Below are positions 6,868 through 30,557 of a DNA stretch of 64,000 nt, piece after piece. The notes beneath the pieces are model-generated. The model saw nothing but the letters and a program-made list of their open reading frames with translations, made no database searches and had not been told where the DNA came from. The stretch is from Gammaproteobacteria bacterium (lineage in GTDB: Bacteria; Pseudomonadota; Gammaproteobacteria; GRL18), in contig JALWRI010000121.1 of the NCBI GenBank assembly GCA_026994225.1, positions 30,630 through 94,629 on the forward strand. The letters run 5' to 3'. Made by a program: the position numbers and the translations under genes. The first letter of the stretch is position 1. The number at the start of each line of letters is the position of its first letter.

Positions 6868-6874
6868 TGGTAGC

Positions 6875-7399
6875 TCCGCCCGTACTAGAGGCAAAGTAGG
6901 AGATACAATAGCAAAGCAGAAAGAAATACAAGAAGAATCGCTGGAAAAATAACTTTGGAAATCAGCAGATAAACTTAGAAAAAATATTAATTCCGCTGAA
7001 TGCAAGCATGTTGTTTTGGGATTGATTTTTCTAAAATATATCTCTGATGCCTTCGAGGAGTTGTATGCCACATTAAAAGCGGGGGAAGGTGAATATGCGG
7101 GAGCTGATCCCGAAGATAAGGACGAATACAAAGCCGAAAATGTCTTTTTTGTACCACAAGATGCCCGCTGGTCGCACCTGCAAGCCCATGCCAAGCAACC
7201 CACTATCGGTAAAACCGTTGATAAGGCAATGGATGCCATTGAAAAGGAAAACACTTCATTAAAAGGCGTGCTGCCTAAAGTCTACGCCCGTCAAAACCTC
7301 GACCCAACCAGCCTGGGCGAACTGATTGATCTTATCAGAAATATCGCTTTAGGTGATGCTAAATCCCGTAGCGCCGATGTGCTAGGGCATGTGTTTGAA
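6875..7399 (+). pseudogene. hsdM: Type I R-M methyltransferase subunit HsdM, N-terminal fragment only (in-frame TAA at 6950-6952, catalytic domain deleted)
   Basis: '[39 protein letters not shown]...ADVLGHVFE' is the HsdM N-terminal domain. There is no plausible start codon, a nonsense codon is present, and the sequence switches to HsdS-like at about 7400. Confidence 0.8.
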
Positions 7400-8030
7400 C
7401 AAATGGCAGAAACGCTGTTTCGGCAGTGGTTTGTGATCGATGCGCGGGAGGATTGGGAGGAGAAGCCTTTATCTTTTTTTGGAGATATTGTTTGTGGTAA
7501 AACCCCGTCTAAAAAGAAACCAGAGTATTATCAAGGCAAAATACCATTTATAAAAATTCCTGATATGCACGGCAATAGTTATGTTTTTAATACAACAGAT
7601 ACTCTGACAGAAGAAGGTAGTAATTCACAAAAAAACAAGTTATTACCACTAAAATCAATATGTGTAAGTTGTATTGCTACAGTAGGGTTAGTTTCCTTAA
7701 CAACAAAAAATAGCCATACCAATCAACAGATAAATTCCATTGTTCCACATAAGAATGAATAATGAATATAGGTATTATTTGTTTTTACAGATGAAATCTT
7801 CATATAATTTACTACATGCTATGGCAAGTGCTGGAACAGCAACATTAAATTTAAATACTGGTAATTTTTCGAAAATAGAAATTCCACTACCTGATGAAAT
7901 AATATTGCAAGGGTTTCATAACGAAGTGGAACCATTATTTGATAAAATATATAAAAATCAAACCCAAATCCGCACTCTGGAATCCCTCCTGCCTAAATTA
8001 ATGTCAGGTGAAATAAGGGTGAAATTTTAA
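7400..8030 (+). pseudogene. hsdS: Type I R-M specificity subunit HsdS, distal half only, frameshifted near 7765
   Basis: '[10 protein letters not shown]...[24 protein letters not shown]...NQQINSIVP' (TRD). After a frame change comes 'GTATLNLNTGNFSKIEIPLP...LLPKLMSGEIRV', the conserved HsdS C-terminal helix. Confidence 0.8.
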
Positions 8031-8032
8031 TC

Positions 8033-8716
8033 ATGGAAAAATATCTAAATAAATATCGAACAACATCCACACGGCTGCAGAATTGGGATTATCGGTGGGC
8101 TGGGGCGTATTTTATTACCATCTGTACCCATAATCGCGTCCATTATTTTGGTGGAATTGATAACGAAAAAATGAAATTATCCAATATCGGTATCATTGCC
8201 GATATTTTGTGGTATGAAATAAAAAACCATGCCCGGAATATTGAATTGGGGGAATATATTGTCATGCCAAACCATATTCACGGAATTTTGATTTTGAATC
8301 ATGATGATACCGATACCGATACCGATACCGTAGAGACAAGGCATGCCTTGTCTCTACCATCACCATCACCATCACCATCACCATCACCATCACCATCACC
8401 ATCACCATCACCATCACCACAATCAAAAACAATAGGACAAAAACGATTTCAAAATCAGGGAAAAAATACCATTTCGTCAATTATTGGTTCGTACAAATCG
8501 GCGGTGACAAAACACGCCCACCGTTTGGGTTATGATTTTAAATGGCAACCCCGTTTTTGGGATCATATTATCCGCAATGAAGATAAATACCAACGCATTG
8601 CCCAATATATTATGAATAACCCCAAACAATGGGCGATGGATAAATTAAATAATGGCGTTGCTAATCAGGTGTTAGAAACATCAGCAAGATACAATCATGA
8701 GGAATGGATGATATGA
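8033..8716 (+). CDS. IS200-like HUH/Y1 transposase family protein (REP-associated tyrosine transposase, RAYT-like) with an internal repeat insert
   Basis: HUH motif 'MPNHIHGILIL'. Downstream Tyr region 'IIGSYKSAVTKHA' and 'RFWDHIIRNEDKYQRIAQYIMNNPKQW'. Starts 2 nt after the hsdS stop. Confidence 0.8.
   Translation: MEKYLNKYRTTSTRLQNWDYRWAGAYFITICTHNRVHYFGGIDNEKMKLSNIGIIADILWYEIKNHARNIELGEYIVMPNHIHGILILNHDDTDTDTDTVETRHALSLPSPSPSPSPSPSPSPSPSPSPQSKTIGQKRFQNQGKNTISSIIGSYKSAVTKHAHRLGYDFKWQPRFWDHIIRNEDKYQRIAQYIMNNPKQWAMDKLNNGVANQVLETSARYNHEEWMI
8306..8329. repeat. (GATACC)x4 microsatellite inside the RAYT-like ORF (encodes DTDTDTDT)
   Basis: Read directly: gataccgataccgataccgatacc. Confidence 0.97.
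8330..8357. repeat. 28-nt perfect palindrome GTAGAGACAAGGCATGCCTTGTCTCTAC (encodes VETRHALSL)
   Basis: Identical to its own reverse complement. Lies between the two microsatellites. Confidence 0.97.
8358..8419. repeat. (CATCAC)x10 microsatellite inside the RAYT-like ORF (encodes about (PS)10P)
   Basis: Read directly. Ten perfect hexamers from 8358 to 8417 plus a partial unit. Confidence 0.97.
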
Positions 8717-8780
8717 GCTAGTAGCCACCTTTTGAAATGGCTCCCGCCATCCTGAATTACAAAAAAAGAGAAAATTAAGC

Positions 8781-9776
8781 ATGCAAGATCAAATCGTTAT
8801 TTATCAATCTAAAGGAGGGCAGGCTCAAGTTGAACTTCGTTTGGAGCAAAACACTTTTTGGTTATCTCAAAAACAAATGGCTGTTTTATTTGACAAAGAC
8901 AGTGATACGATTGGTTTACATCTTAAAAAAATATATAAAGAAGGTGAATTGGATGAAAAGGCAACTACCGAGCAATACTCGGTAGTTCGTCAGGAAGGTA
9001 AGCGTCAGGTTAGACGCAACATTAAGCATTACAATCTCGATGCCATTATCTCCGTTGGCTACCGTGTCAATTCCAAACAAGGCACGCAATTTCGCATCTG
9101 GGCAACACAACATCTAAAAAACATTCTGATTCAAGGCTACAGCCTGCATCAACAACGCTTTGAACAAAACGCCCAAACCTTGCAACAAGCCCTGAAACTG
9201 ATTGAAAAAACCGTAAAATCGCCAGATTTAACGTTGAATGCAGGTCGTAGTTTAACCGAGATTGTCAGCCGTTATACGCAAACCTTTTTATGGCTACAAC
9301 GCTATGATGAAGGCTTGCTGGACGAACCCAAAGGGCAAGTAGGCGGAGATTTACCCAGCCCTGAGGAGGCAATGCAAGCCTTAATGACCTTAAAACAGGA
9401 TTTAATCGCTCGCAAACAAGCCACCGATTTATTCGCCAGACCCCGCAGTGATAGTTTGGCAGGTATTTTTGGTAATCTCAATCAAAGTGTTTTTGGCGAA
9501 GCAGCATACCCTACGATAGAAAGCAAAGCCGCCCATTTGTTGTATTTTGTGGTAAAAAACCACCCGTTTTCCGATGGCAATAAACGCAGTGGCGCATTTT
9601 TATTTGTCGATTTTCTCAATCGCAATGGACGATTACTCAATCAGTAAGGCGAGCCAGTGATTAATGATACAGGCTTGGCGGCGTTAAGCTTGCTGGTTGC
9701 AGAATCCGACCCCAAGCAAAAAGAAACGATAATTCATTTGATTATGCAGATGTTAAACAGGAAGGATGATGAATAA
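8781..9776 (+). pseudogene. RhuM-family N-terminal domain fused to a Fic/DOC domain, interrupted by an in-frame TAA at 9645-9647
   Basis: N-terminus 'HYNLDAIISVGYRVNSKQGTQFRIWATQ' is RhuM-like. Fic motif 'HPFSDGNKRSG' is present. After the TAA the same frame continues as 'GEPVINDTGLAALSLLVAESDPKQKE...' to the TAA at 9774-9776. Confidence 0.7.
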
Positions 9777-11801
9777 AATCACTGAAAATGCTATCGAAAC
9801 CTTCTGCATCGAACTACTGTAAAAGCAGGGGTACGAATATATCTACGCCTCTGATATTGCCCCAGATAGTGATAATCCGCAACGCAGCAGTTTTGAAGAT
9901 ATTTTATTAAACAGCCGTCTAACGGCTGCTATTGCCAGAATCAATCCAACGATTCCGCACGATGCCCGACAAGAGGCAATTAAAGAAATCAGTCGCATTC
10001 ATTCCCCCGAATTACTGAGTAATAACGAGACTTTTCACCGAATGCTCACCGAAGGGGTGAAGGTGAGCTACCAAAAAAACGGCAGCCAGCGCGGTGATCT
10101 GGTGTGGCTGGTGGATTTTACCAACCCACAAAACAATGATTTTGTGGTTGCCAATCAGTTGACGGTGATTGAAAACGGGGTAAATAAACGCTCTGATGTG
10201 GTGTTATTTATCAATGGCTTGCCGTTAGTGGTGATTGAGCTTAAAAGTGCTGCGGATGAAAACGCCACGATTAAATCCGCTTACCAACAACTGCAAACCT
10301 ACAAACAAGCCATTCCCAGCCTGTTTACTTATAACGGTTTGATGATTATTTCAGATGGTCTGGAGGAGAAGGCGGGTTCACTCTCGGCTGGACTCAGCCG
10401 TTTTATGAACTGGAAAACTGCTGATGGCAAGATCGAGGCCTCCCATCTGGTCAGCCAGTTGGAAACCCTGATTAAAGGGATGCTGAATAAAGAAACCTTG
10501 CTGGATTTGATTCGTCATTTTATTGTGTTTGAGAAATCCAAAAGCGAAGACCCCAAAACGGGCGTGGTGACGATAGAGACGGTAAAAAAGGGACAAGGCA
10601 TGCCTTGTCTCTTAAAAAATTGCTACAGGTTGCCTCAGGTGGGGTAATTTTTTCCACCATTCAAAAGTTCCAACCCGATGAAGGCAATGTTACTGGTAAA
10701 AAGGTGGTGTATGGTTTTGCTAAATATATGTGTGATGCCCTGCCGAATGCCACTTATTTAGGGTTTACAGGTACGCCAATAGAAAGCACCGATACCAACA
10801 CCTCCGCTGTTTTTGGTAATTATATTGATGTTTATGATATAGCCCAGGCCGTTGAAGATGGGGCAACGGTGTGTATTTATTATGAATACGCAAAAAGCCA
10901 AGGCAAAATGGACGCAGTTAGAAGCGTTAATCGGTAGTGAAAATCGCATTAAAAATATTGCTCAGGATATTGTCAGTCATTTTGAGCAACGCCGGGCCGT
11001 GTTTGAGGGTAAGGGCATGATTGTTGCCATGAGTCGCCGTATTGCCACTGATTTATACGCCCAAATCATCAAGATCAAACCTGACTGGCATTCCGATGAT
11101 CTGTATAAAGGCGTGATTAAAGTGGTGATGACCTCCAGTTCATCCGATGGTCCTGAAATTGCCAAGCACCATACCACCAAGGCACAGAGAAAAATGCTGG
11201 CAGATAGAATGAAACACCCTGATGATAAACTTAAATTGGTGATTGTGCGGGATATGTGGCTAACAGGCTTTGATGCCCCCAGTTTGCACACATTATATAT
11301 TGATAAGCCAATGAAAGGGCATAAAACCTGATGCAAGCGATTGCACGGGTGAATCGGGTTTATAAAGACAAGCCGGGCGGCTTGATTGTTGATTATTTGG
11401 GGATTGCATCCGATCTGAAAAAAGCCCTGTCTTTTTATTCCGATGCGGGCGGAAAAGGCGACTCGACTATTTTACAAGAGCAAGTCGTTGAACTGATGTT
11501 GGAGAAGTTGGAAGTGATTGCTCAGTTGTTTTATGGCTTTGCTTATGAACAATATTTTGCCGCAGATACTGCCCAAAAACTATCACTAATTCTAGCGGCG
11601 GAAGATCATATTCTAGGTTTGGAGGATGGCAAGAAACACTTTATGAATGAAATCATCGCTTTATCTAAAGTTTTTGCCATTGCCATACCCCATGAACAGG
11701 CAATGGATGTTAAAGAGGAAATCGCTTTTTTTCAGGCAGTAGAGGTGTTGAAAAAATTTGGTGAAAAGCAAATCACTCGATGTAAACATGGGATTGTCTG
11801 A
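9766..11801 (+). pseudogene. hsdR: Type I restriction enzyme R subunit HsdR, multiply disrupted
   Basis: 'MMNKITENAIETFCIELL*KQGYEYI' has an in-frame TAA at 9820-9822. 'VVLFINGLPLVVIELK' is the nuclease-domain region. Helicase motif I and the DEAH box are missing, while '[11 protein letters not shown]' and 'LGFTGTPIE' remain. Frame changes occur near 10610, about 10900 and 11330 ('GHKT*MQAIARVNRV'). The 3' end is replaced by a tnpB relic. Confidence 0.85.
10588..10613. repeat. Second copy of the RAYT-gene palindrome (AAGGGACAAGGCATGCCTTGTCTCTT) at the hsdR deletion junction
   Basis: The 18-nt core GACAAGGCATGCCTTGTC (10592-10609) is identical to 8335-8352. The 24-nt stretch matches 23/24. 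A6 runs flank both sides. Confidence 0.95.
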
Positions 11802-11986
11802 GTTGTGGCAGCACTGGTATTGATCGGGATATTAACGCCAGTGGCAAGATCCGGCAGCAGGGGATTTTGAAACCAAAGACGGCAGGTCTTATCGTTTTTG
11901 CTGATGGAGGCTTGGATAATTCCGGCACACCGCCGGTTGTTGCTAATAAAGTCAGAAGCCTTGCCTGTTAAGGCGGGGAGAAGTTA
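11786..11986 (+). mobile_element. IS200/IS605-family TnpB C-terminal relic with right-end-like hairpin
   Basis: The frame from 11786 reads 'TWDCLSCGSTGIDRDINASGKIRQQG...' (CxxCG...DRDxNA zinc-finger/RuvC-III region), with its stop at 11969-11971. A hairpin at 11959-11978 (gccttgcc/ggcgggg, with G-T pairs) follows. Confidence 0.6.
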
Positions 11987-13276
11987 CGGAATATCCAAAT
12001 CTAATTCAGGAGAAAGGGGTTTATTATCCTTTTTTTGTTGTTTTTCTTCTTCTTCTTGTTCTTTTAATGCAGCTTCCCAAGGATCTATGCTGTTATCTGG
12101 TGGAGTATCCCCCGCTTCTTTTTGTGCAGTAGCTTGTGCTTCTTCTTCTGCCTGCTCTTTTAATGCCGCTGCCCAAGGGTCATCCTCTGTTCCTTCTTCT
12201 GCTATACTGTTATTGTTATGGGCAGCTTGTTCTGAAAAGGCCTCTTGCCATAGTGCATCAGCATCCTCTTCTTGACTTTCAGTGGATGTATCTGCTACAA
12301 GCGTGTCTGTTTGAGTTGTTGCATGATGCTCTTTTTCTGCTTGCTCTTTTAATGCTGCCGCCCAAAGGTCATCTTCTGCCCCTTCTTCTGCTATATTATC
12401 ATTGTTATGAGCAGCTTGTTCTGAAAAGGCTTCTTGCCATAGCGCATCGGCATCCTCTTCTTCTGTGTTATCAGTACTTTCTGCTGTAATGTTTGTTTCT
12501 GTTTCTGTTTCTGCTACTATTTGGGTTGCTGGCTCTGAGCTAGCAATAGTATCAAATGTTTCTCCTACTATGGTCTTATCATCTACTAAGGATTCTTCTA
12601 TAGTACTTGTAGCAGCAGGAGTTGTGGGCGTAGAGGCAGTGGGGTCTATTTTTTGACGCAAGTGTAAGATAGCTTTTAATATTTCATTAGCTTGAATATT
12701 TTGTGTTTCAGGGTTAGTATGACCATATTCAGTTACCAGTGTTGTGAGTGTTTCTAATGCTTCATTAAGATGCTCATTGACATTATTATTATTTTTTTCT
12801 AATTGCTGTATTTGATACATTAAATTCATTTTTTCTTGATCTAATTCCTGGCATTGCTGAGATAATGCGGCTACTTCTGTTGCATTGGCACTACCCGATG
12901 TATTTTTAGTAATAGTAAAAAAATGATTATTCATGGTACTTAATTGCTTGCGCAAGGTAAGTAATGCTTGTGGATCACGATTGCGTTCTAAATAAATCTG
13001 ACTAAAAGTTTTAATAAAATCCGTTTCTACTTGTAATAACTTCTCACTCTCCTCATCAATATTTCCACTGTGATCATGTACCTCTTTTAATAATGTTTTA
13101 ATTTCTAATTTACGGTTATCATTGGTGAGATTAGTGATCTGGCTTAATTGATTGATGGCATCTAAATCTGCTTTTTTTTGACGTAAAACCCGGACAACGA
13201 TAATAATGGTAATAATGGCAAGAACCACTGCAATTTCACTGATAATAATTAATAAGCTAGGAATGGTTTCTGACAT
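11984..13276 (-). CDS. Membrane-anchored coiled-coil protein with an acidic C-terminal tail carrying five 'D-x-[LP]-W-x-x-A-[FL]-[KS]-E-Q' motifs
   Basis: 430 aa. N-terminal TM 'LLIIISEIAVVLAIITIIIVV', a Q/N/E-rich coiled-coil region and a repeat tail. The start overlaps the upstream vWA gene stop by 1 nt. Confidence 0.75.
   Translation of the reverse strand: MSETIPSLLIIISEIAVVLAIITIIIVVRVLRQKKADLDAINQLSQITNLTNDNRKLEIKTLLKEVHDHSGNIDEESEKLLQVETDFIKTFSQIYLERNRDPQALLTLRKQLSTMNNHFFTITKNTSGSANATEVAALSQQCQELDQEKMNLMYQIQQLEKNNNNVNEHLNEALETLTTLVTEYGHTNPETQNIQANEILKAILHLRQKIDPTASTPTTPAATSTIEESLVDDKTIVGETFDTIASSEPATQIVAETETETNITAESTDNTEEEDADALWQEAFSEQAAHNNDNIAEEGAEDDLWAAALKEQAEKEHHATTQTDTLVADTSTESQEEDADALWQEAFSEQAAHNNNSIAEEGTEDDPWAAALKEQAEEEAQATAQKEAGDTPPDNSIDPWEAALKEQEEEEKQQKKDNKPLSPELDLDIP
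12143..12460. repeat. Intragenic tandem duplication, period 189 nt (63 aa), about 1.7 copies
   Basis: 'EEDADALWQEAFSEQAAHNN..IAEEG.EDD.WAAALKEQAE' occurs at residues 273-314 and again at 336-378 of the 430-aa protein. Confidence 0.9.
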
Positions 13277-15114
13277 TATATCGCCTCAATCAATGTTTGT
13301 ATTTGTTCTTTTTGCTTCTTTTTCCAATGTTTATAGAGTAACCAACTAGGTATAGCAATAATAATATTGCTTAAAAATACAATGAATGCTACAAGTAACC
13401 AATTTACTGGGGTATCTACAGGGGAAGTGTTTTTTGTTGGAGGCGGCTCTTTTGCTGTAGATGGCACTTCAAGTTGTTTTTTGGCCGGTTTTTTTTGTTT
13501 TTTTGTCGCTAATTTCAGTTCAATGAGAGGAGAACGGTATTGGATGCTTCTTCCTTGTTTAGATTGTGTAGATACTAAAAGTTGCACTCGGTATTTTTTA
13601 TTGGCATCGAGGATTGGAGTAGGAAAACTCCACAGTTTTGCTGGTGAGGGTTCTGATTTTAAGAGCGTCTTTTTGCCGACAGAATTAACTAAAAAAGCAG
13701 TAACTTGTGTTTTGTCTGGATCAACAAATTCTAGCAGAGGGGATACTAAAATGCGGTATACTAATTGTGGTGCAGGAGATAACAATTCAATATGGGGAGA
13801 TACCAATAGTGTATTACTAACATGTAAATAATGTTGTAATTCTCGTTGAAAGGTTGGGCTGGAAATTTTTACATTTAGTATGTGATCACCAGGAATTAAG
13901 GTTTTCTCTAATATTAGTGTGTAATAGCCATCACCACTTTTTTTATCTCCTTGTAATCCAAAATCACTTAAAAACCATTTTTGTTCTTCTTCATCGGGTT
14001 GGGTTTGTGCGATGGCAACAGAAATAACTTGTAAAAAGTCTTCGTCATCAATATGTTTATCATTTTCAGTGAGGGATATTAAAATGCTAAGGGTTTCCCC
14101 ATAAAATACATTATTGGGGAGGGGAGATGTTTGCATTTGTAAATTAGTAACTACCATAGCACGGTTATCAGGATCCATTTCTGCGTTAATATGCCATTCC
14201 CCCGACATAGGTTTAGTAATAGTAATTAAGTCATAACCCACTTCATGTTGCCATGATACATATTTTTTATAATGTTTGTTAAATGTGATTTTCTTTTTGT
14301 CAGGCATAATTATTTCAGTAGGTCGAGCGTTTTTTTTTCGAAAAACCAACAGGGTTAATTCATAGATAGAGTTATCTATAGTAAACGTATTATCAGTTAA
14401 TGGAACAGTATCACGAGGTGTCGCTTTTTCAAACATATGTAAAAAAATATGCTGGAGTTGATCGGCATTATCGGTTTGTTCAAATCCTCCATCGGTAGTT
14501 AATGAAAGGTCTTGCAAAAATTGATGATCTGCATTTTCAGATAAAGCAATAGTGTGTACTTTTATATGTTGTTGTTGTAACTGAGGGACTAATTGTTCCA
14601 AAATTCGTGTTTTTTCAATCCTGTTTTTATTCGGATCTTTAGAAATATCAACCATTCCGTCAGTAAGTAAAATGATATTACGATGAGATACTTGATCATC
14701 TTTGATGGGATGTTGTTTCCAATAAGTCAAGGCTTTTTGTAAAATATTTCCAATATCAGTAAATAGTTCTTGTGAAGTAATTTTATTTTCAATACGTTGG
14801 GCCTTGTTTTTCCAATTTTTGTTGGTGGTACTCATTTTTAATAGTGGTTTGGATTTAGCACCAAATGTCCAGATTGCTGCTTTAGATTCAGAAGGGAGTA
14901 AACTACTTAACAAACGTAATGCAGGTCGTCTGAGATTTTGGGGATCATTTTTTTTCATGCTACCTGATACATCAATAAGAATAAAGGTCTCATTGGTAAC
15001 AGAAGGTACTTTTGCATGACAGATATTCGTACATATAAAGAGTATAATATATAATAGAGGGAAGATATTATATTGGGATACAAGAGAAAAGATAGAACTA
15101 TAATATATCGACAT
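13276..15114 (-). CDS. Exported, C-terminally membrane-anchored von Willebrand factor A (vWA) domain protein
   Basis: 612 aa. MIDAS 'DVSGS' in 'ILIDVSGSMKKND' and 'ILLTDG'. Hydrophobic N-terminal signal. A long beta-rich middle, then C-terminal TM 'WLLVAFIVFLSNIIIAIPSWLL' followed by a K-rich tail. Confidence 0.8.
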   Translation of the reverse strand: MSIYYSSIFSLVSQYNIFPLLYIILFICTNICHAKVPSVTNETFILIDVSGSMKKNDPQNLRRPALRLLSSLLPSESKAAIWTFGAKSKPLLKMSTTNKNWKNKAQRIENKITSQELFTDIGNILQKALTYWKQHPIKDDQVSHRNIILLTDGMVDISKDPNKNRIEKTRILEQLVPQLQQQHIKVHTIALSENADHQFLQDLSLTTDGGFEQTDNADQLQHIFLHMFEKATPRDTVPLTDNTFTIDNSIYELTLLVFRKKNARPTEIIMPDKKKITFNKHYKKYVSWQHEVGYDLITITKPMSGEWHINAEMDPDNRAMVVTNLQMQTSPLPNNVFYGETLSILISLTENDKHIDDEDFLQVISVAIAQTQPDEEEQKWFLSDFGLQGDKKSGDGYYTLILEKTLIPGDHILNVKISSPTFQRELQHYLHVSNTLLVSPHIELLSPAPQLVYRILVSPLLEFVDPDKTQVTAFLVNSVGKKTLLKSEPSPAKLWSFPTPILDANKKYRVQLLVSTQSKQGRSIQYRSPLIELKLATKKQKKPAKKQLEVPSTAKEPPPTKNTSPVDTPVNWLLVAFIVFLSNIIIAIPSWLLYKHWKKKQKEQIQTLIEAI

Positions 15115-15326
15115 ACGTCATAACTTATAAAAACTTAAAAGAGTAGAGTCTGGGTGTATTGTTTGTGCGGTTAGAATATAGCCGATTATATAGCTTTTTT
15201 ACAGCTTCCATCAATATGCAATGCTATATAAATTAAGTCAATCGCTATTGTAAGAACAAATAAATACCGTATGTTATAATAATTATTTATATTTCACACA
15301 TAGTTTATTTTGCTGGTGCATATGGT

Positions 15327-15836
15327 ATGCAAGGCACAATGGATAATTATAATAAATATATTTTAGTCGTTGATGATGATATGTTGAATAGGGAGCTGAT
15401 TGCGGAAATATTAGTAGAGAATATGCAAACAAACCATTATCATCTTGATTTTGCAGTAAATGGTGAAGAATGTTTACAAAAATTACAGCAAACTAAATAC
15501 CAATATGATGTTATTTTACTCGATCGTATGATGCCTGTGATGGATGGTATGCAAGTATTACAAAATATTAAAGAGCATGAACAGTGGAAATATATCCCTA
15601 TTATTATGCAAACTGCAAAAGTGGGTTTAGATAATATTGTAGAAGGCATTGAAGTGGGTGTTTTTCAGTATTTAACCAAGCCTTTTGAATGGGAAAAGTA
15701 TATGGAGTTTGATCCTGGCAGAGCCTTTGATCCAAATGGGAGGGGAATTGCGATGGCACAAAGTATGAGTTTTGATAAATTGGAATTTTTTCGACCGGGA
15801 AATAAAGTAAAAGCAACACTTATCTTAAAAGACTAA
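15327..15836 (+). CDS. Response-regulator receiver domain fused to the last ~45 aa of an RsbW/SpoIIAB-type HATPase-like domain (probable internal deletion)
   Basis: 'ILVVDDD...DVILLDRMMPVMDG...MQTAK...YLTKPFE' is the REC domain. The tail 'FDPGRAFDPNGRGIAMAQSMSFDKLEFFRPGNKVKATLILK' resembles the G2-box end of HATPase_c_2. Confidence 0.65.
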   Translation: MQGTMDNYNKYILVVDDDMLNRELIAEILVENMQTNHYHLDFAVNGEECLQKLQQTKYQYDVILLDRMMPVMDGMQVLQNIKEHEQWKYIPIIMQTAKVGLDNIVEGIEVGVFQYLTKPFEWEKYMEFDPGRAFDPNGRGIAMAQSMSFDKLEFFRPGNKVKATLILKD

Positions 15837-15999
15837 GTATTATGCTGCTGTTATGATCTTTGATGAGGACGGATAAGCGTGCAAGAGTGCAATTTTTTGG
15901 CCAGTATTTATGGAAACTTAAATTTCAGTGGTGAAGAACAGATCTAAACAGAGATTGTCCAACATATTGTATCGGTAATATAACAGCAAGGTAGTGTAA

Positions 16000-17817
16000 A
16001 TGACAATAAATATACCAAAATATATTGGGCGTTTTCCTGTGATTAAAAAATTGGGTCATGGGGGTATGGGAGCGGTTTATCATGCAAAAGATCCTGATAT
16101 TGATAGAGATGTTGCAATTAAGGTTTTAACAGGTGTTACTGATGAGGTATCTAAAAAAAGATTTTTAAATGAAGCAAAAACGATTGGTCGTTTATCGCAT
16201 CCTAATATTGTCTTATTACTTGAATATGGCTTTCAGGGTGATGAACCCTATTTGGTTATGGAATACTTATCAGGTGATTCGCTAGATACCTGGATAAAAA
16301 AGTACCCTGTAGCAGAATCATTGGAAACAAGACGTAATATTATTTTACAGTTATGTCGTGCTGTGAATTATTCTCATCAACAGGACATTTTGCATAGAGA
16401 TATTAAGTTGCAAAATATCCAAATTTTGCCGGATAATTCAGTAAAACTTTTGGATTTTGGTATTGCACAAACAGAAAATACTCATTTTACTGCTACAGGG
16501 CAATTTATTGGTACACCCGAATTTTTAGCACCAGAAATCCTTAATGGACAACCGCACAGTACTAGCACTGATTGTTATTCAGTTAACTTAATTGCTTATA
16601 CATTATTGACTGATACCCGCCCTTTTAATGCAAAAACATTACAAGAGTTAGTGACTCATAAATTAACACTCATCCCTTCACCCCCTCATAAGCTAAATAA
16701 AGCAGTAAGTAAAGCCTTGTCTAAAATGGTGATGAGTTATTTAGAAATGCCTGCTAATTTACGTTATCAGAATTTAGAGCCATTAGAACAAGCTATTATA
16801 GATCCGAGTACAGCAACATTGACAAGCAGTTTTTTTACACTTAATAATGATGTAACTTTAATAGCTCAAAATACAGTAGTCAGTGCCAGCATAAGAAAAA
16901 AGCGCAGAGTTAATCTATGGTTAGGTATTTTGTTGCTATTAGTAATAGCAGGAGGGATGGGAATACTGTTTGTTGAGCAGTGGAATAAAAAAACGGAGGT
17001 GGTTGATAGCTCCCCAGTTATCACTCCAAAAAACGAGTTAAAACAAGCGGCTAGTAAAAAACACCTAGCTAAAGAGGAGAAAGAGGATAAAGTAGCGCAA
17101 TTACCCGTCGTGCCGCTGATGGTTGCCTCTCCAACCCCAACGCCGCCACAGCCAGAAAAAGATAAACGTCCTCCTCAGGTAACTACGGTAATACCTCCTC
17201 CCATGATGACGTTAGAAAAAGTACCAGTAAAAACTCCTAACATACCTGCTGATAAGATAAAAAAACACCCAGTGCAGACTAAGCAAGTAAAAAAAGAGGA
17301 TAGGCAAGATGCAGATAAAAAACAGCCATCAAAATCAGAGGCTATGGTGGCGGTAAAAAAAATGCCTGTTATGACAATAAAAAAAACAGAACCTGTAGCT
17401 TTAGTGCAAAACCCTGCCCCTTCGAATTTGGATTTAGATAACAATAAGAGCGCAGTATCCGTACCCATACCGCCACCTCCGGTAAAACCGCCTTCTGTAA
17501 GCCGTTTACCTTCTTTAGCCTTATTGGGAGATCATCCGAAAATTAGGGCTATTTCTTCAACTTCTTTGCGGAGAGGGAAACAGATAGATTTTCAAATAGT
17601 ATTAGACAAAAGTATACCAAGTATAAAATTTTTTTTTCATCACAATAATAAAAAAACACAACAAGTTAAAATTTATCAACAAGATGAGCTATCACATAAT
17701 CGCTTTAATTTAAAACTGTTTGTAGAACCTAATGCACAGTTAGGTACATATATTTTATTTGGTGGTACGTATGATAATGTATTAACCGATCCACTAATTA
17801 TAAGGGTAACATTGTAA
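16000..17817 (+). CDS. Transmembrane Ser/Thr protein kinase with a P/K-rich linker and an extracytoplasmic C-terminal beta-rich domain
   Basis: 'GHGGMGAVY', 'VAIKVL', 'HRDIKLQN', 'DFG' and 'GTPEFLAPE' are all present. TM 'LWLGILLLLVIAGGMGILFV'. Confidence 0.9.
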   Translation: MTINIPKYIGRFPVIKKLGHGGMGAVYHAKDPDIDRDVAIKVLTGVTDEVSKKRFLNEAKTIGRLSHPNIVLLLEYGFQGDEPYLVMEYLSGDSLDTWIKKYPVAESLETRRNIILQLCRAVNYSHQQDILHRDIKLQNIQILPDNSVKLLDFGIAQTENTHFTATGQFIGTPEFLAPEILNGQPHSTSTDCYSVNLIAYTLLTDTRPFNAKTLQELVTHKLTLIPSPPHKLNKAVSKALSKMVMSYLEMPANLRYQNLEPLEQAIIDPSTATLTSSFFTLNNDVTLIAQNTVVSASIRKKRRVNLWLGILLLLVIAGGMGILFVEQWNKKTEVVDSSPVITPKNELKQAASKKHLAKEEKEDKVAQLPVVPLMVASPTPTPPQPEKDKRPPQVTTVIPPPMMTLEKVPVKTPNIPADKIKKHPVQTKQVKKEDRQDADKKQPSKSEAMVAVKKMPVMTIKKTEPVALVQNPAPSNLDLDNNKSAVSVPIPPPPVKPPSVSRLPSLALLGDHPKIRAISSTSLRRGKQIDFQIVLDKSIPSIKFFFHHNNKKTQQVKIYQQDELSHNRFNLKLFVEPNAQLGTYILFGGTYDNVLTDPLIIRVTL

Positions 17818-19166
17818 TGTCTTTAGTTAAAAAACAGGTGAGTAACGGGATTTTTATATTATTGTTAATATGGAGTGTGGCACTTGTCGCTGCACCTATG
17901 GCATCTGAAAAGCGTTTACAACAACTAGAAATACAATGGCAACAGATGCAACAGGATATTCAACAGCTAAAACAAGATGTGAACATTATTCAGCATCAAA
18001 ATCAGGCGGTAGAGAGTGTACCGCAATTACAACAGCGTATTACCGATTTAGAAAATTATGCAGTGCAGTTATATAATGTATTAAGTAAATTGCAAAAGCA
18101 ATATGATAAAACAGAATTAGAAGTTACCCAATTAGCTGCTTCAGCACGTAATCAGCCTAATATCACTTTATATGGTACGTTTGCTATAGATAAGAAAAGG
18201 CATGAAGCAACGATTTTTGATGCACAATCGGTGGAGTTGGTTTTTAGTGGGCAACCACATCAAAAAATTAGTTATTTTACTGAATTTGAATTTGAACGGG
18301 CAGCAACCGTAGGGGGAGGACGTGGAGGAGAAGTCTTAGTTGAGCAAGCCTATTTAGATTTGCAGCTTTTTGATTGGATGTCATCTCGTACTGGCGTTAT
18401 TTTAATTCCTTTTGGTAATATCGAAGAAAATCACTATACTCCCATTCGGGAGACCATCTCCAAGACATTAACAGCCTATGCGCTTGCTCCTTCAGATTGG
18501 TTTGATAACGGTACGGGATTAACTGGGCAGGTCAAGGTCAATAAAGATTGGTTACTTTTCTATCAAACTTATTTAACCACCGGTTTAGGTAGCGATATAA
18601 GTGCTACGGGATTACGTGGTACCCGTCAGGGTTTTGGCGTAGATAATAATAATAATAAAGCCTTTAGTTTAGATGTCTCTTTAAAATTTGCCTCTATGTT
18701 AAATATGGGGTGGAGTTTTTATCAAGGTGCATATAGTGATGATGGGAAAGAGGATATTACTGGATGGAGTAGTGATTTTATATTTGAATGGAAGGCCTTA
18801 AAATTGTCTGGAGAATATATGCGGATGAATGTGGATAGAGCAGAAGGCACAACGGCTAAAATGGATGGTCTTTATTTAAGAAGCAGTTATGAAATATCTC
18901 AATATTTTAAACCTTTGTGGAGTGGAACGTTATTTCCCGATGCAAAATTGCATTACATTATGCAGTATGATTGGGTTAATATTGAAAATCCTTATACTTT
19001 AGAAGTAAAAGATAATAAAGAACAACGCTATACACTAGGGTTTAGTTATCGTCCTGACCACCGCTTAGTATTAAAATTAAACTATGAATATAGTAAGGCA
19101 TCAGGATTAAGAATTTTACGTGGTAATGCGAAATCTTGGTTAGCATCAATGGGCTATATTTTTTGA
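17817..19166 (+). CDS. Outer-membrane beta-barrel (porin-like) protein with an N-terminal periplasmic coiled coil
   Basis: Signal peptide and a Q-rich heptad region 'LQQLEIQWQQMQQDIQQLKQDV'. Alternating beta-strand pattern with terminal 'GYIF'. The ATG overlaps the kinase TAA (TAATG). Confidence 0.65.
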   Translation: MSLVKKQVSNGIFILLLIWSVALVAAPMASEKRLQQLEIQWQQMQQDIQQLKQDVNIIQHQNQAVESVPQLQQRITDLENYAVQLYNVLSKLQKQYDKTELEVTQLAASARNQPNITLYGTFAIDKKRHEATIFDAQSVELVFSGQPHQKISYFTEFEFERAATVGGGRGGEVLVEQAYLDLQLFDWMSSRTGVILIPFGNIEENHYTPIRETISKTLTAYALAPSDWFDNGTGLTGQVKVNKDWLLFYQTYLTTGLGSDISATGLRGTRQGFGVDNNNNKAFSLDVSLKFASMLNMGWSFYQGAYSDDGKEDITGWSSDFIFEWKALKLSGEYMRMNVDRAEGTTAKMDGLYLRSSYEISQYFKPLWSGTLFPDAKLHYIMQYDWVNIENPYTLEVKDNKEQRYTLGFSYRPDHRLVLKLNYEYSKASGLRILRGNAKSWLASMGYIF

Positions 19167-19182
19167 TGATTATATATAAATA

Positions 19183-19269
19183 TGGTGCCGAGGGTCGGAG
19201 TCGAACCGACACTCCTTTGCAGGAACTGGATTTTGAATCCAGCGCGTCTACCAATTTCACCACCCCGGC
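19183..19269 (-). tRNA. tRNA-Leu (anticodon CAA), CCA encoded
   Basis: The reverse complement GCCGGGGTGGTGAAATTGGTAGACGCGCTGGATTCAAAATCCAG...GGTTCGACTCCGACCCTCGGCACCA has a cloverleaf with a long variable arm. The anticodon loop is TTCAAAA. Confidence 0.93.
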
Positions 19270-27638: not shown

Positions 27639-27909
27639 TTTATATTTTCCTGAATTAATACCGATAGTTAAGTTGTAGCCAATGATGTTTTTTTGGTAGC
27701 AGGTATTGGTATTAAATATTATTATTTTCAATAAGTATATCAAAATAAAAAAGAAGTCCATAGTAAACCGGGATATGTTATAATCCATTTGCTACAAAAG
27801 ACGTATTATCATGGTATAAATAAGATACTGTAGTAAACAACGATACTGTATAAGCCTATAGAGTGCTTGTCACCTAATTTAAAGTAATGAAAATGTGGTC
27901 ATAAAGGTT

Positions 27910-28821
27910 ATGAAAACTAACTTAGCAATTATGTTTGCTGATATTAGTGGTAGTACACGAATATATGAAACCCTTGGGGATAGTCGGGCTAGAGATATTA
28001 CTGCTAAATGTGTTGAATTGATGAGTAAAATTACCCAACAATATGAAGGTAGGGTAATAAAAACTATTGGAGACGAAGTCATGTGTGTATTTCCTTCAGC
28101 TGATACGGCAGGAAATGCGGCAATTTTCATGCAAGAAAGTATTCAACGTAGTGAGGCTGATTTTGGTTATCCATTACGTATTCGAGTAGGATTTCATTAC
28201 GGTGAGGTCATTGAAGAACAAGGAGATGTGTTTGGTGATGCGGTAAATTTAGCGGCACGTTTAGCTGGACAGGCAAAAGCTGATCAAGTGATTACCAGTG
28301 GTGAAACGTGTGAGTATATGCATCCGCTGTTAAAAGGGAAAACCCGTCTTTTAATTACAACGACAGTAAAAGGAAAACAAAAATCAGTAAAACTGTATGA
28401 ATTGACCTGGGGAGAAGAAGAAGATCTCACTATTATGGGATCGGTGAGTCAGATAATGACATCGGTAAATCCAGAAGTTTATCTAAATGTGTATTATCAA
28501 AATCAAGAAATTCAGGTGAATCAGGGATTATCCAATATTACAATAGGACGGGGCGCACAAAATCATTTTATGGTATCTGTTGCAGTCGCATCCCGATTAC
28601 ATGCTCGTATTGAGTTTCGTAGGGGTAAATTTTTTATTGTCGATCAAAGTACGAATGGAACGTATGTGATAATGAATGGTAAGGTAAATTTTGTACATAG
28701 AGATGAGTTGCCACTGGAAGGACAGGGTAAAATTAGTTTAGGTAAAAAATTCACCGGTGATGAGCAACAAAATAATGAGTATGTTTTACGTTTTGTAGTT
28801 AATGGTTCATTGCCTCAGTAA
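27910..28821 (+). CDS. Class III adenylate/guanylate cyclase domain fused to a C-terminal FHA domain
   Basis: 'AIMFADISGSTRIYE', 'KTIGDEVMCVF' and 'GDAVNLAARL' mark the cyclase. FHA: 'ITIGRG...SRLHARIEF..GKFFIVDQSTNGTYV'. Confidence 0.88.
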   Translation: MKTNLAIMFADISGSTRIYETLGDSRARDITAKCVELMSKITQQYEGRVIKTIGDEVMCVFPSADTAGNAAIFMQESIQRSEADFGYPLRIRVGFHYGEVIEEQGDVFGDAVNLAARLAGQAKADQVITSGETCEYMHPLLKGKTRLLITTTVKGKQKSVKLYELTWGEEEDLTIMGSVSQIMTSVNPEVYLNVYYQNQEIQVNQGLSNITIGRGAQNHFMVSVAVASRLHARIEFRRGKFFIVDQSTNGTYVIMNGKVNFVHRDELPLEGQGKISLGKKFTGDEQQNNEYVLRFVVNGSLPQ

Positions 28822-28851
28822 GCAAGGTCAATTTATGGAATAGGAAAGATA

Positions 28852-30531
28852 ATGGAGCAAGATAAAACCCTGGTTCAAAAGTCCTCTTCAGTAGAAGATA
28901 AGCAAATGATTGGTAAGTATGTAATACAGGAAATCCTTGGACAAGGTGCTATGGGTATTGTATATCGAGCGATTGATCCCTTAATTCAGCGTACTGTGGC
29001 ATTAAAAACCATTCGATTTGATGCTTTTTCTCCTTCCCAATTAAAAGAAGTAAGACAACGCTTTTTACATGAAGCACAAGCAGCAGGACGTTTAAATCAT
29101 CAACATATTGTCATATTGTATGATTTTGGGGAAAGTGATGAGATTACGTATCTTGCAATGGAATATGTTGAAGGAACAGAATTACAACATTATCTAAAAA
29201 ATAATCACCGTTTTAGTTTTAGTAAAGTAATTGATATTATTAGTCAAATTCTTGATGGCTTATTATACGTTCACTCCCATAATATTATCCATAGAGATTT
29301 AAAACCGGCAAATATTATGCTGGAAAAAGATGGAAATGTGAAGATAATGGATTTTGGTATAGCGAGAGTGGATACATCGATTTTAACAACGGCAGGGGCT
29401 ATTTTAGGAACACCTAGCTATATGTCTCCTGAACAATGTATGGGAAATATGGTGGATGCTCGTAGTGATCTATTCTCCGTAGGCGTCATTTTATATCAGT
29501 TACTGACCGGAGAAAAACCTTTTTTTGGTGAAAATCCACATACGATTATGCATCGAGTATTACATACTCAACCTGAACCGCCCTCGGTATTAAATATGCA
29601 AATTCCTGCAGAATTTAATGATATAGTCAATAAAGCGATGGCAAAACATCCCGATGAGAGATTTCAATCTGCAGAGGAATTTTTGCAAGCTCTTCATTGT
29701 TTAGCAAAAGGGAGTTTTACAGATAAACCGCCTGTAACGGATACATCGCCAGTAATAGAAAATGGGCAAGAAACGATTGTGGAGGAAAAAAAGACGCTGA
29801 TCTTGGTTAATGAGGATGCCAGCCCTGAAGCTGATCAAATATCAAAACAATATAGTAAAAATAGTAAGGAAAAAAATGCAAGCCGTGGGGTAGGGAAAGG
29901 AGTCGGTTTTTTTATTTTCTTGCTATTAGTTGCAGGAGGTATTGCCTTTTTTTTTCTACAACCAACAAAACAGGGTGAAAAATATCCAATAGAGATACCT
30001 GCAATAGATAAGAGCCATACTCGAGTAACAGTGAATAAAAATAACGATAGCCCCCCACCGACTATTCAGACTGCTGAAAAGAAGACACCTACACTCCCCC
30101 CTGCTACCGAACCTGAACCTGTACCGGTATTAATTAACAGCCCAGAGATAAAAACCCCTGAATCACTTTCTCATACTGAAAAAGATATGTTAATTAAAGA
30201 GGATAACAAACAAACAGTAACAGAACAGGAAGAAATTTTAGAAATTACAGTGGATAAGCATAAACAAGAGCCAAAGACGCAAAGTCAAACAGATACTTCT
30301 AGCACTACCTTGAAAAATAAGATAACGACTGAGCCAATAGTGAAGCCAGTGGCTGAAGAAGAACAAATTAAAGAAGCAGATTTTAATATTAGTGTACCCA
30401 GTATACCTAAATCAGATAATATGGAGTGGCAAGACGTTAAAGAGATAAATAGTTTAGAAAAGGGGAAGCAATGGAAAACCATTGATACAGGAGATGATAG
30501 TTCTTTACCCGTAATAAAATTAGGAGAATAA
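28852..30531 (+). CDS. Transmembrane Ser/Thr protein kinase
   Basis: 'GQGAMGIVY', 'VALKTI', 'HRDLKPANIM', 'DFGIAR', 'GTPSYMSPE'. TM 'GFFIFLLLVAGGIAFFFL'. Confidence 0.92.
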   Translation: MEQDKTLVQKSSSVEDKQMIGKYVIQEILGQGAMGIVYRAIDPLIQRTVALKTIRFDAFSPSQLKEVRQRFLHEAQAAGRLNHQHIVILYDFGESDEITYLAMEYVEGTELQHYLKNNHRFSFSKVIDIISQILDGLLYVHSHNIIHRDLKPANIMLEKDGNVKIMDFGIARVDTSILTTAGAILGTPSYMSPEQCMGNMVDARSDLFSVGVILYQLLTGEKPFFGENPHTIMHRVLHTQPEPPSVLNMQIPAEFNDIVNKAMAKHPDERFQSAEEFLQALHCLAKGSFTDKPPVTDTSPVIENGQETIVEEKKTLILVNEDASPEADQISKQYSKNSKEKNASRGVGKGVGFFIFLLLVAGGIAFFFLQPTKQGEKYPIEIPAIDKSHTRVTVNKNNDSPPPTIQTAEKKTPTLPPATEPEPVPVLINSPEIKTPESLSHTEKDMLIKEDNKQTVTEQEEILEITVDKHKQEPKTQSQTDTSSTTLKNKITTEPIVKPVAEEEQIKEADFNISVPSIPKSDNMEWQDVKEINSLEKGKQWKTIDTGDDSSLPVIKLGE

Positions 30532-30557
30532 CTCTCAATAAGAGATAATAATTAAAT

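What the first reader, a model, noticed from the sequence alone, without database searches (positions are those of the whole stretch)
11984..19166. Divergent vWA / acidic-repeat partner versus receiver / Ser-Thr kinase / porin cluster: candidate uncharacterised envelope-spanning signalling system
On the minus strand there is an exported, membrane-anchored vWA protein with an intact MIDAS (DVSGS...TDG) plus its coupled TM/coiled-coil partner. Across a 212-nt AT-rich divergent promoter region (15115-15326), the plus strand carries three genes. These are a receiver protein (truncated), an apparently active TM Ser/Thr kinase with an extracytoplasmic C-terminal domain, and a coupled outer-membrane barrel. 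vWA proteins recurrently co-occur with Ser/Thr kinases, PP2C phosphatases and FHA modules in bacterial signalling and conflict loci. Here no PP2C or FHA is present; the truncated receiver gene may have lost a domain. An outer-membrane component is attached instead. I cannot assign the combination to a described system.
Basis: inference. Interest (0 to 1): 0.6.

Follow-up and report, generated by a model that had tools for sequence, protein, structure and literature searches.

The report
Two unrelated gene pairs, not one system
The five genes are real, but they are two independent, widely conserved two-gene modules that only happen to be neighbours here: a membrane kinase wired to its own outer-membrane pore, and a periplasmic vWA protein with an acidic partner that tracks with flagella; a decayed regulator gene lies between them.

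Summary
All five ORFs, their coordinates and their domains are confirmed. The proposed five-gene system is not supported.

- **No shared locus.** In 14 same-family genomes the vWA gene and its partner lie in a fixed block: rluA-sbcB-partner-vWA, divergent from KAS and REC-HATPase_c_2. No kinase or porin is present in that block.
- **Kinase-barrel pair.** The barrel's 29 relatives in a public species-genome collection, plus three metagenome contigs, come from Gammaproteobacteria and Acidobacteriota. A roughly 580-aa Hanks kinase lies directly upstream in 29 of 31 loci. Its stop codon overlaps the barrel start by 4 bp in 23 of 25 loci. No vWA, partner or receiver gene lies within 6 kb of any of them.
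- **Kinase-barrel anatomy.** The kinase has an active domain, one membrane helix, a 119-247-aa Pro-rich linker and a C-terminal Ig-like domain. The barrel is a 16-strand porin with a periplasmic coiled-coil stalk. This self-contained module is apparently uncharacterised and is a good candidate for trans-envelope signalling.
- **vWA pair.** It is a separate, widespread module related to TIGR03503. Of 82 genomes with a hit, 79 also encode FliN (odds ratio 61). Five non-flagellate relatives have lost or degraded it. The partner's tail repeats a motif otherwise found in this genome only at the FliN N-terminus.
- **Receiver gene.** It carries an in-frame internal deletion of a REC-HATPase_c_2 orthologue.

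The parts
11984..13276 (-). Partner of the vWA protein (430 aa). It has an N-terminal membrane helix with a conserved Glu (..SEIAVV..), a cytoplasmic coiled coil and an acidic tail.
   Evidence: ORF. It lies directly downstream of vWA in 14 of the 14 same-family loci examined (genome-wide hits) and, as a TM-Glu protein, in about 14 of 17 other gammaproteobacterial families. It has no Pfam or NCBIfam model apart from a FliN_N hit.
12047..12469 (-). Acidic tail with five copies of D-x-[LP]-W-x-x-A-[LF]-x-E-Q (Trp at residues 280, 305, 343, 368 and 400).
   Evidence: Orthologues carry 3-7 copies of [ED][ED]DPW[AG][AD]ALAEQ. The only other ORF in the whole genome with this motif is the FliN N-terminus. 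Pfam FliN_N E 1.9e-6.
13276..15114 (-). Exported vWA protein with a C-terminal membrane anchor (612 aa). It has a signal peptide, a vWA/MIDAS domain (14446-14982), a TIGR03503-like beta region (13312-14409), a C-terminal membrane helix and a short basic tail.
   Evidence: At least 1598 homologues, named 'VWA domain-containing' or 'TIGR03503 family'.
15115..15326 (.). Divergent 212-nt intergenic region with 29% G+C.
   Evidence: The promoter scan found no more sites than in shuffled sequence.
15327..15836 (+). Decayed REC-HATPase_c_2 gene. The receiver domain is intact (15360-15698) and is joined in frame to the last ~48 residues of the ATPase domain (15678-15821).
   Evidence: No intact copy exists elsewhere in the genome.
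16000..17817 (+). Hanks-type Ser/Thr kinase (605 aa). It has a kinase domain (16039-16770), a membrane helix (~16909-16977), a Pro/Lys-rich periplasmic linker of ~188 aa and a C-terminal Ig-like domain (17539-17814).
   Evidence: The AlphaFold2 model of the last 115 residues has pLDDT 89 and is a beta-sandwich. Foldseek returns generic Ig domains. Weak Pfam matches to Qn_am_d_aIII and TIG.
17817..19166 (+). Outer-membrane barrel (449 aa). It has a signal peptide, a periplasmic helical stalk (~17901-18152), a 16-strand porin-like barrel (~18159-19163) and a C-terminal Phe.
   Evidence: AlphaFold2 model pLDDT 72. Foldseek top hits are OmpT, Omp32, OprP, OprO and OmpM1. A kinase gene lies directly upstream in 29 of 31 loci.
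19183..19269 (-). tRNA-Leu(CAA). It bounds the kinase-barrel pair on its 3' side.

Best explanation
The interval holds three independent units that are neighbours only in this lineage.

**Unit 1, kinase plus barrel (16000-19166, + strand).** This is a self-contained, translationally coupled two-gene module. The barrel is a 16-strand, probably trimeric porin with strongly conserved inner loops and a periplasmic coiled-coil stalk. The kinase sits in the inner membrane. Its long Pro-rich linker carries a C-terminal Ig-like domain across the periplasm.
- Inferred: the Ig domain docks on the stalk or the periplasmic face of the barrel. The state of the porin (occupancy, damage or envelope spacing) then changes how the kinase molecules cluster, and so changes their autophosphorylation and the phosphorylation of cytoplasmic targets. 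This would work like FecA-FecR cell-surface signalling, but with a porin as input and a Hanks kinase as output.

**Unit 2, vWA plus partner (11984-15114, - strand).** This is a separate, widespread two-gene operon. The vWA/MIDAS domain faces the periplasm. The partner's acidic tail faces the cytoplasm and displays several copies of the FliN N-terminal motif.
- Inferred: it is an accessory of the flagellar or chemotaxis apparatus, and it recruits or titrates whatever binds that motif.

**Unit 3, receiver gene (15327-15836).** This is a remnant of the REC-HATPase_c_2 gene that neighbours the vWA pair in relatives. Its ATPase domain is deleted.

Shown: the gene pairings, the domain anatomy, the distributions and the motif sharing. 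Inferred: the physical contacts, the signal and the targets.
For: **The units are separate.**
- The vWA and partner genes are adjacent in 14 of the 14 same-family loci examined, inside the block rluA-sbcB-partner-vWA, divergent from KAS and REC-HATPase_c_2.
- The kinase matches in relatives cover only its kinase domain and lie on other contigs. The barrel has only weak hits elsewhere.

**The kinase-barrel pair is a unit.**
- In three unrelated metagenome contexts a ~580-aa Pkinase gene overlaps the barrel gene by 4 bp.
- The genome-collection scan found 29 loci in Gammaproteobacteria and Acidobacteriota.
- The kinase is upstream in 29 of 31 loci, and these two are the only families shared among the loci.
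- The [AG]TGA overlap is present in 23 of 25 loci.
- The architecture is constant.
- Pairwise distances of the kinase domain and the barrel correlate at r = 0.965.
- Folds.

**The vWA pair is linked to flagella.**
- In 300 sampled class genomes, 79 of 82 with vWA also have FliN, against 66 of 218 without vWA (odds ratio 61, p 1e-27).
- The control gene sbcB gives only 59% (odds ratio 1.95).
- The five same-family genomes that lack FliN and FlhA have vWA absent or fragmented.
- The motif is shared only with FliN in this genome.
- In one genome vWA follows flhG-fliA-motC-motD.
- In another family the partner tail carries two FliM-like 'ADIDAL[FL]' motifs.
Against: **Kinase-barrel pair.**
- No contact between the kinase Ig domain and the barrel was tested. 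The tools offered no complex prediction, and the distance correlations did not single out the stalk as the contact surface.
- Linker and stalk lengths do not compensate for each other (r = +0.5).
- Every carrier found is a metagenome-assembled genome, so there are no experimental data.
- The barrel model has only moderate confidence (pLDDT 72).

**vWA pair.**
- Two genomes (G091, G123) keep an intact pair without FliN or FlhA.
- 66 flagellate genomes lack the pair.
- In genus g3 FliN lacks the motif although the partner has seven or more copies.
- The W motif is confined to one family. Other families have different acidic motifs.
- The phyletic test is not corrected for phylogeny.
Confidence: 0.7

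Rival explanations
1. One reading: all five genes form one envelope-spanning signalling or conflict system, in which the vWA pair works with the receiver, the kinase and the barrel.
For: The genes are adjacent across a shared divergent intergenic region. The receiver-vWA neighbourhood is conserved within the family, with a KAS gene in between.
Against: No relative has the kinase or barrel near vWA. None of the 31 kinase-barrel loci has vWA, partner or receiver within 6 kb. The vWA domain is periplasmic. The receiver gene is decayed.
Confidence: 0.04
2. The kinase and the barrel are co-expressed but never touch. The barrel is an ordinary substrate-specific porin. The kinase's Ig domain senses a periplasmic solute or the cell wall, and the kinase adjusts metabolism to what the porin admits.
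For: The barrel resembles specific and general porins and has a conserved L3-like 'PFGN' loop. The Ig-like domain belongs to a very common bacterial repeat family.
Against: Strict 4-bp translational coupling across two phyla and the absence of any third conserved gene suggest a 1:1 complex. The stalk on the barrel and the roughly 120-250-aa spacer on the kinase look like parts meant to meet.
Confidence: 0.2
3. The kinase's C-terminal Ig domain is passed through or displayed by the barrel, so that one polypeptide spans the whole envelope and senses the outside directly, as in RcsF or intimin-type display.
For: The linker (119-247 aa) is longer than needed to cross the periplasm. The C-terminal ...EV[TS]L end is invariant.
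Against: A 16-strand porin with a constriction loop is too narrow for a folded Ig domain. The invariant last Leu codon is also constrained by the overlapping start codon of the barrel gene.
Confidence: 0.06
4. The vWA pair has nothing to do with flagella. It is a general envelope or adhesion module, or a polar hub, of free-living motile Gammaproteobacteria. In that case the FliN-like motif is a convergent acidic amphipathic peptide.
For: G091 and G123 keep the pair without flagella. The pair is rarely encoded near flagellar genes. The tail motifs differ between families.
Against: The odds ratio of 61, against 1.95 for a control gene. Five losses or decays together with flagellar loss inside one family, including a 4.0-Mb complete genome. 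The motif occurs in only two proteins of the whole genome.
Confidence: 0.3

Closest known systems
FecA-FecR-FecI type cell-surface signalling (TonB-dependent transducers)
   Same: An outer-membrane barrel with a periplasmic N-terminal extension is paired with a single-pass inner-membrane protein. That protein's C-terminal domain is periplasmic and its N-terminal domain is the cytoplasmic output. The genes are adjacent.
   Different: The barrel here is a 16-strand porin-like barrel with a coiled-coil stalk, not a 22-strand plugged receptor with a signalling domain. The output is a Hanks kinase, not an anti-sigma factor. No ECF sigma or TonB genes are conserved nearby.
Stalked porins OmpM1 (Veillonella, PDB 8BYM) and SlpA
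   Same: A 16-strand porin barrel preceded by a periplasmic coiled-coil stalk. OmpM1 is among the Foldseek hits.
   Different: There is no SLH wall-binding domain at the tip of the stalk. The organisms are Proteobacteria and Acidobacteriota. The barrel is paired with a kinase.
OprP/OprO phosphate-selective porins (Pfam PF07396)
   Same: The Pfam match exceeds the cut-off. The barrel has 16 strands, and OprP and OprO are among the top structural hits.
   Different: Sequence identity is only 12-16% in the structural alignments. An N-terminal stalk is added. The conserved loops differ ('PFGN..DH', 'RQGFGxDNNNNKA'). No phosphate link was found.
PknB/Stk1-type receptor kinases
   Same: An active Hanks kinase, one membrane helix and an extracytoplasmic sensor region.
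   Different: The sensor is a Pro-rich spacer plus one Ig-like domain instead of PASTA repeats. The hosts are diderm. The kinase has an obligatory outer-membrane partner gene.
TIGR03503 family (NCBIfam hypothetical equivalog)
   Same: The C-terminal 366 residues of the vWA protein align over the whole model (positions 2-373 of 374; E 8e-39). JGI names relatives 'TIGR03503 family'.
   Different: The score of 133.6 bits is below the 305.6-bit cut-off. The family has no known function, and no paper mentions it.
TerY-type vWA / Ser-Thr kinase / PP2C triads
   Same: A vWA protein and a Hanks kinase lie in one neighbourhood.
   Different: Here the vWA domain is exported, there is no PP2C, and the two genes are not co-localised in any other genome.
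HubP/FimV polar hubs (comparison from general knowledge)
   Same: A single-pass membrane protein with a long acidic, repeat-bearing cytoplasmic region, in polar flagellates.
   Different: There is no LysM domain. The periplasmic part is supplied by a separate vWA protein. The repeats are short FliN_N-like motifs. No homology was detected.

Membership tests
von Willebrand factor A domain (Pfam PF00092) | HMM match above the gathering score | tested here: met
   41.9 bits against 23.8, residues 45-223.
von Willebrand factor A domain (Pfam PF00092) | Complete MIDAS (DxSxS...T...D) | tested here: met
   D48, S50, S52, T119 and D152 are invariant in 16 homologues.
TIGR03503 (NCBIfam hypothetical equivalog) | Score above the curated cut-off of 305.6 bits | tested here: not met
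   133.6 bits. The alignment covers model positions 2-373 of 374, so the protein is homologous but outside the equivalog.
Hanks-type protein kinase (PF00069) | HMM match and catalytic residues (VAIK Lys, alpha-C Glu, HRD, DFG, APE) | tested here: met
   172.7 bits. K41, E58, H132-R133-D134, N139, D152-F153-G154 and A177-P178-E179 are invariant across four family members.
Porin_O_P (PF07396) | HMM match above the gathering score | tested here: met
   34.8 bits against 20.9. The precomputed Pfam column lists the domain for only some of the orthologues.
Porin_O_P (PF07396) | 16-strand barrel like OprP | tested here: met
   The AlphaFold2 model has 16 strands (pLDDT 72). OprP 2o4v has E 1.9e-13 and TM 0.51-0.56.
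Porin_O_P (PF07396) | Phosphate or anion selectivity (Arg ladder) | not testable with these tools
   The conserved residues differ from those of OprP. Channel recordings would be needed.
Response regulator receiver (PF00072) | HMM match and acceptor residues | tested here: met
   85.4 bits. The DD pair, D65-type acceptor, Thr and Lys are all visible in the sequence.
REC-HATPase_c_2 regulator (the orthologue in relatives) | Complete HATPase_c_2 domain | tested here: not met
   Only the last ~48 residues remain. About 133 residues are deleted in frame.
vWA / Ser-Thr kinase / PP2C (TerY-type) triads | Cytoplasmic vWA protein, PP2C phosphatase and kinase in a conserved neighbourhood | tested here: not met
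   The vWA protein has a signal peptide and a C-terminal anchor. There is no PP2C. The genes are not co-localised in 40 relatives or in 31 kinase-barrel loci.
TonB-dependent cell-surface signalling | TonB-dependent receptor with N-terminal signalling domain, FecR-like anti-sigma factor and ECF sigma factor | tested here: not met
   The Pfam scan returned no such domain in the kinase or the barrel. No third gene family is conserved among the loci.
FliN N-terminal motif (PF16973) | HMM match above the gathering score | tested here: met
   28.1 bits against 24 for partner residues 298-324. This is a short motif match, not evidence that the protein is a FliN.

The most novel reading that the evidence does not exclude
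The kinase-barrel pair is a new, TonB-independent kind of cell-surface signalling. A dedicated stalked porin is the receptor in the outer membrane. A Hanks-type Ser/Thr kinase, held to the porin by its C-terminal Ig domain, carries the signal to the cytoplasm. Independently, the vWA-partner operon would be an unrecognised accessory of gammaproteobacterial flagella that displays FliN/FliM-like peptides at the membrane.
Probability: 0.3. Interest if true: 0.8.

Novelty: new variant of a known kind. Interest (0 to 1): 0.55.

Why it matters
Hanks-type kinases are common in Gram-negative bacteria, but how they receive signals from beyond the periplasm is largely unknown. A strictly coupled kinase-porin module found in two phyla gives a concrete, testable route for signalling from the outer membrane to a kinase. 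It also adds to a recurring pattern in which stalked porins are encoded beside sensor proteins.

The vWA-partner operon has more than 1500 homologues and no published function. Its tie to flagella, and its tail built from FliN-like motifs, offer a first functional handle. They also point to an unknown binding partner of the FliN N-terminus.

For the scan itself, the case shows that a suggestive divergent arrangement can be pure juxtaposition.

Tried and rejected
- **Five-gene system:** rejected on the synteny evidence.
- **Specific fold for the kinase C-terminal domain (TonB-C, PASTA, PEGA):** rejected. It is a generic Ig-like sandwich with only weak Pfam matches to Qn_am_d_aIII and TIG.
- **Linker and stalk lengths compensating for each other:** not seen (r = +0.5).
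- **Partial distance correlations to locate the contact surface:** uninformative, because all parts co-diverge at r = 0.93-0.97.
- **Strict co-variation of the FliN and partner motifs:** rejected. In genus g3 FliN lacks the motif while the partner has seven or more copies.
- **Promoter and terminator scan:** no more sites than in shuffled sequence, so operon boundaries remain unresolved.
- **Literature searches** for TIGR03503, for the motif strings, for vWA with flagella and for Hanks kinase with porin: nothing relevant.
- **TIGR03503 in the 14 named control genomes:** absent.
- **Pfam and NCBIfam on partner orthologues:** no family.
Full report

- Pfam and NCBIfam confirm a vWA domain, a receiver, a Hanks kinase and a Porin_O_P-like barrel. 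They also show that the C-terminal 366 residues of the vWA protein align end to end with the hypothetical family TIGR03503, though below its cut-off.
- The MIDAS residues are invariant in 16 diverse homologues.
- The kinase keeps every catalytic motif.
- The vWA stop overlaps the partner start by one base, and the kinase stop overlaps the barrel start in TAATG.
- The divergent spacer is 212 nt with 29% G+C.
- The promoter and terminator scans did not exceed shuffled controls.

**Is it one system?** I searched 40 related genomes with each protein.

- The vWA gene and its partner are adjacent in all 14 same-family loci examined.
- Larger regions from 20 genomes show a fixed block in 14 family members: rluA-sbcB-partner-vWA, divergent from a beta-ketoacyl synthase (KAS) gene and then a 305-aa REC-HATPase_c_2 gene.
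- In relatives the kinase matches only through its kinase domain (residues 1 to about 270-360), on other contigs. The barrel has only weak hits elsewhere.
- The window's receiver aligns to residues 1-119 and 253-300 of the 305-aa orthologue. It is therefore an in-frame deletion derivative with an intact receiver and no functional ATPase domain.
- This genome lacks the family's KAS orthologue, and its sbcB lies on another contig.
- The kinase-barrel pair lies between the receiver remnant and tRNA-Leu(CAA).

**The kinase-barrel pair.**

- *Distribution.* Barrel homologues of 35-49% identity exist. In three unrelated contigs each is preceded by a ~580-aa Pkinase gene with a 4-bp overlap, and the other neighbours differ entirely. 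A scan of one genome per species found 29 loci. They are Lysobacterales, Rhodanobacteraceae, Alcanivoracaceae, Sedimenticola and Enterobacterales MAGs, plus Thermoanaerobaculia and Vicinamibacteria of the Acidobacteriota.
- *Linkage.* tblastn and all-against-all ORF clustering show the kinase directly upstream in 29 of 31 loci. The exceptions lie at contig ends or in damaged loci. No other gene family is shared, and none of the loci has a vWA, partner or receiver match. The kinase stop overlaps the barrel start as [AG]TGA in 23 of 25 loci.
- *Kinase anatomy.* All kinases share the same plan: a kinase domain, one membrane helix near residue 300, a low-complexity Pro-rich linker of 119-247 residues and a 92-residue C-terminal domain ending EV[TS]L. 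AlphaFold2 folds that domain as a beta-sandwich (pLDDT 89). Foldseek returns only generic Ig domains. A profile search shows the same domain as tandem repeats in giant proteins and as the single C-terminal domain of many 500-680-aa proteins. Pfam gives weak Qn_am_d_aIII and TIG matches.
- *Barrel anatomy.* The barrel model has a signal peptide, two long helices (residues 29-61 and 68-112) and 16 strands. Its best structural matches are trimeric porins, including OprP, OprO and the stalked OmpM1. The long third loop carries an invariant PFGN..DH motif, and the fourth loop an invariant RQGFGxDNNNNKA motif. This points to a specific channel or binding site rather than a general pore.
- *Co-divergence.* Kinase and barrel distances correlate at r = 0.965, so the two genes have diverged together.

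**Mechanism for the pair (inferred).** Strict 1:1 coupling, a stalk reaching down from the outer membrane and a spacer-borne Ig domain reaching up from the inner membrane suggest a physical complex. In it, the state of the porin would control kinase clustering and autophosphorylation. No tool here could test the contact. Linker and stalk lengths do not compensate, and the partial correlations do not single out the stalk. Rivals are simple co-expression without contact, and display of the Ig domain through the barrel. Earlier notes of this scan describe stalked Porin_O_P-like barrels next to histidine kinases in other genomes. I took these as unverified leads that fit the same theme.

**The vWA pair.** The family is large: at least 1598 homologues, named only 'VWA domain-containing' or 'TIGR03503 family'. 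Named relatives include chemosynthetic symbionts of Gigantopelta and of lucinid clams.

- *Topology, read from the sequence.* The vWA protein has a signal peptide, a periplasmic vWA domain and beta region, a C-terminal membrane helix and a short basic tail. The partner has a short N-terminus outside, one helix with a conserved Glu, and a cytoplasmic coiled coil and acidic tail.
- *Conservation of the partner.* Across about 14 of 17 other gammaproteobacterial families the gene after vWA encodes the same kind of protein. It has no Pfam or NCBIfam model.
- *The tail motif.* In the window's family the tail carries 3-7 copies of [ED][ED]DPW[AG][AD]ALAEQ; the window has five. A six-frame scan of the whole genome finds this motif in only one other ORF, the N-terminus of FliN (DPWEAAMNEQ), next to fliL and fliM. 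This agrees with the Pfam FliN_N hit.
- *Phyletic test.* In 300 evenly sampled genomes of the class, 82 have a vWA hit, 145 have FliN, and 79 have both (odds ratio 61, p 1e-27). The control gene sbcB, which has similar prevalence and is the pair's own neighbour, is FliN-positive in only 59% (odds ratio 1.95).
- *Co-loss within the family.* The five genomes without FliN also lack FlhA. They have vWA absent (G005, G017) or in fragments (G001, a complete 4.0-Mb genome; G006; G008).
- *Other hints.* In one genome vWA follows flhG-fliA-motC-motD. In another family the tail has two 'QADIDAL[FL]' motifs that resemble the FliM N-terminal EIDAL peptide.
- *Evidence against.* Two genomes keep the pair without flagella. 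Genus g3 has the partner motif but no FliN motif. The test is not corrected for phylogeny.

I therefore hold the flagellar or chemotaxis accessory reading at roughly 55-60%. I treat any specific ligand (CheY-P, FlhG or C-ring proteins) as speculation.

**Comparison with the known.**

- The kinase-barrel pair works most like FecA-FecR cell-surface signalling, but it fails every membership feature of that system.
- The barrel is a Porin_O_P member with an OmpM-like stalk and no SLH domain.
- The kinase is a PknB-like receptor kinase with an Ig domain instead of PASTA repeats.
- The vWA protein is a sub-threshold relative of TIGR03503. Its closest solved relative is the vWA domain of an uncharacterised membrane protein (4rck, E 9e-9).
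- No paper was found on TIGR03503, on the motif, or on a kinase-porin pair.

What remains is two conserved, uncharacterised two-gene modules. One is a plausible new variant of trans-envelope signalling. The other has a new and fairly strong link to flagella.

Noticed in passing
window 27895-35290 (+): A second signalling cluster lies here. It comprises an adenylate/guanylate cyclase-FHA protein, a 559-aa Hanks kinase, a 1298-aa hybrid histidine kinase (CHASE3-HAMP-GAF-HisKA-HATPase-REC-REC) and CheR. It contains the only FHA domain near the finding.
   Followed up: partly
window 13180-13270 (-), and the partner orthologues in L094-L111: The single membrane helix of the partner carries a conserved Glu in every family looked at (..SEIAVV....AEASIV....VELAVG....GEAALM..). 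It is followed by a conserved 'E+xFYxxxxxxYLxR[DN]' block. A buried acidic residue is reminiscent of ExbD, TolR and MotB, but no homology was found.
   Followed up: partly
L038:7207-8265 (genome G026): This partner orthologue lacks the Trp motif. Instead it has two 'QADIDAL[FL][ED]Q' repeats that resemble the FliM N-terminal EIDAL peptide. Other families show 'DLD[IL]DSLF' or 'DDLDELL' repeats.
   Followed up: partly
L037:11613-15663 (genome G027): Here the vWA gene lies directly downstream of flhG-fliA-motC-motD and a 128-aa membrane/coiled-coil gene. FliN is 11 kb away on the same contig.
   Followed up: no
genome G001, contig C1, 3918102-3925438: In this complete 4.0-Mb genome, which has neither FliN nor FlhA, the vWA gene is split over three frames. 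The partner has an internal stop and lies about 5 kb away. This looks like decay after loss of flagella.
   Followed up: partly
window 6868-11986: The hsdR fragments, the RAYT gene and the other remnants of a decayed type I restriction-modification island replace the sbcB-rluA genes that flank the partner gene in relatives.
   Followed up: no
L073 and L061: The kinase (L073) or the barrel (L061, L073) of the conserved pair appears frameshifted in these MAG loci. This may be a pseudogene or an assembly error.
   Followed up: no
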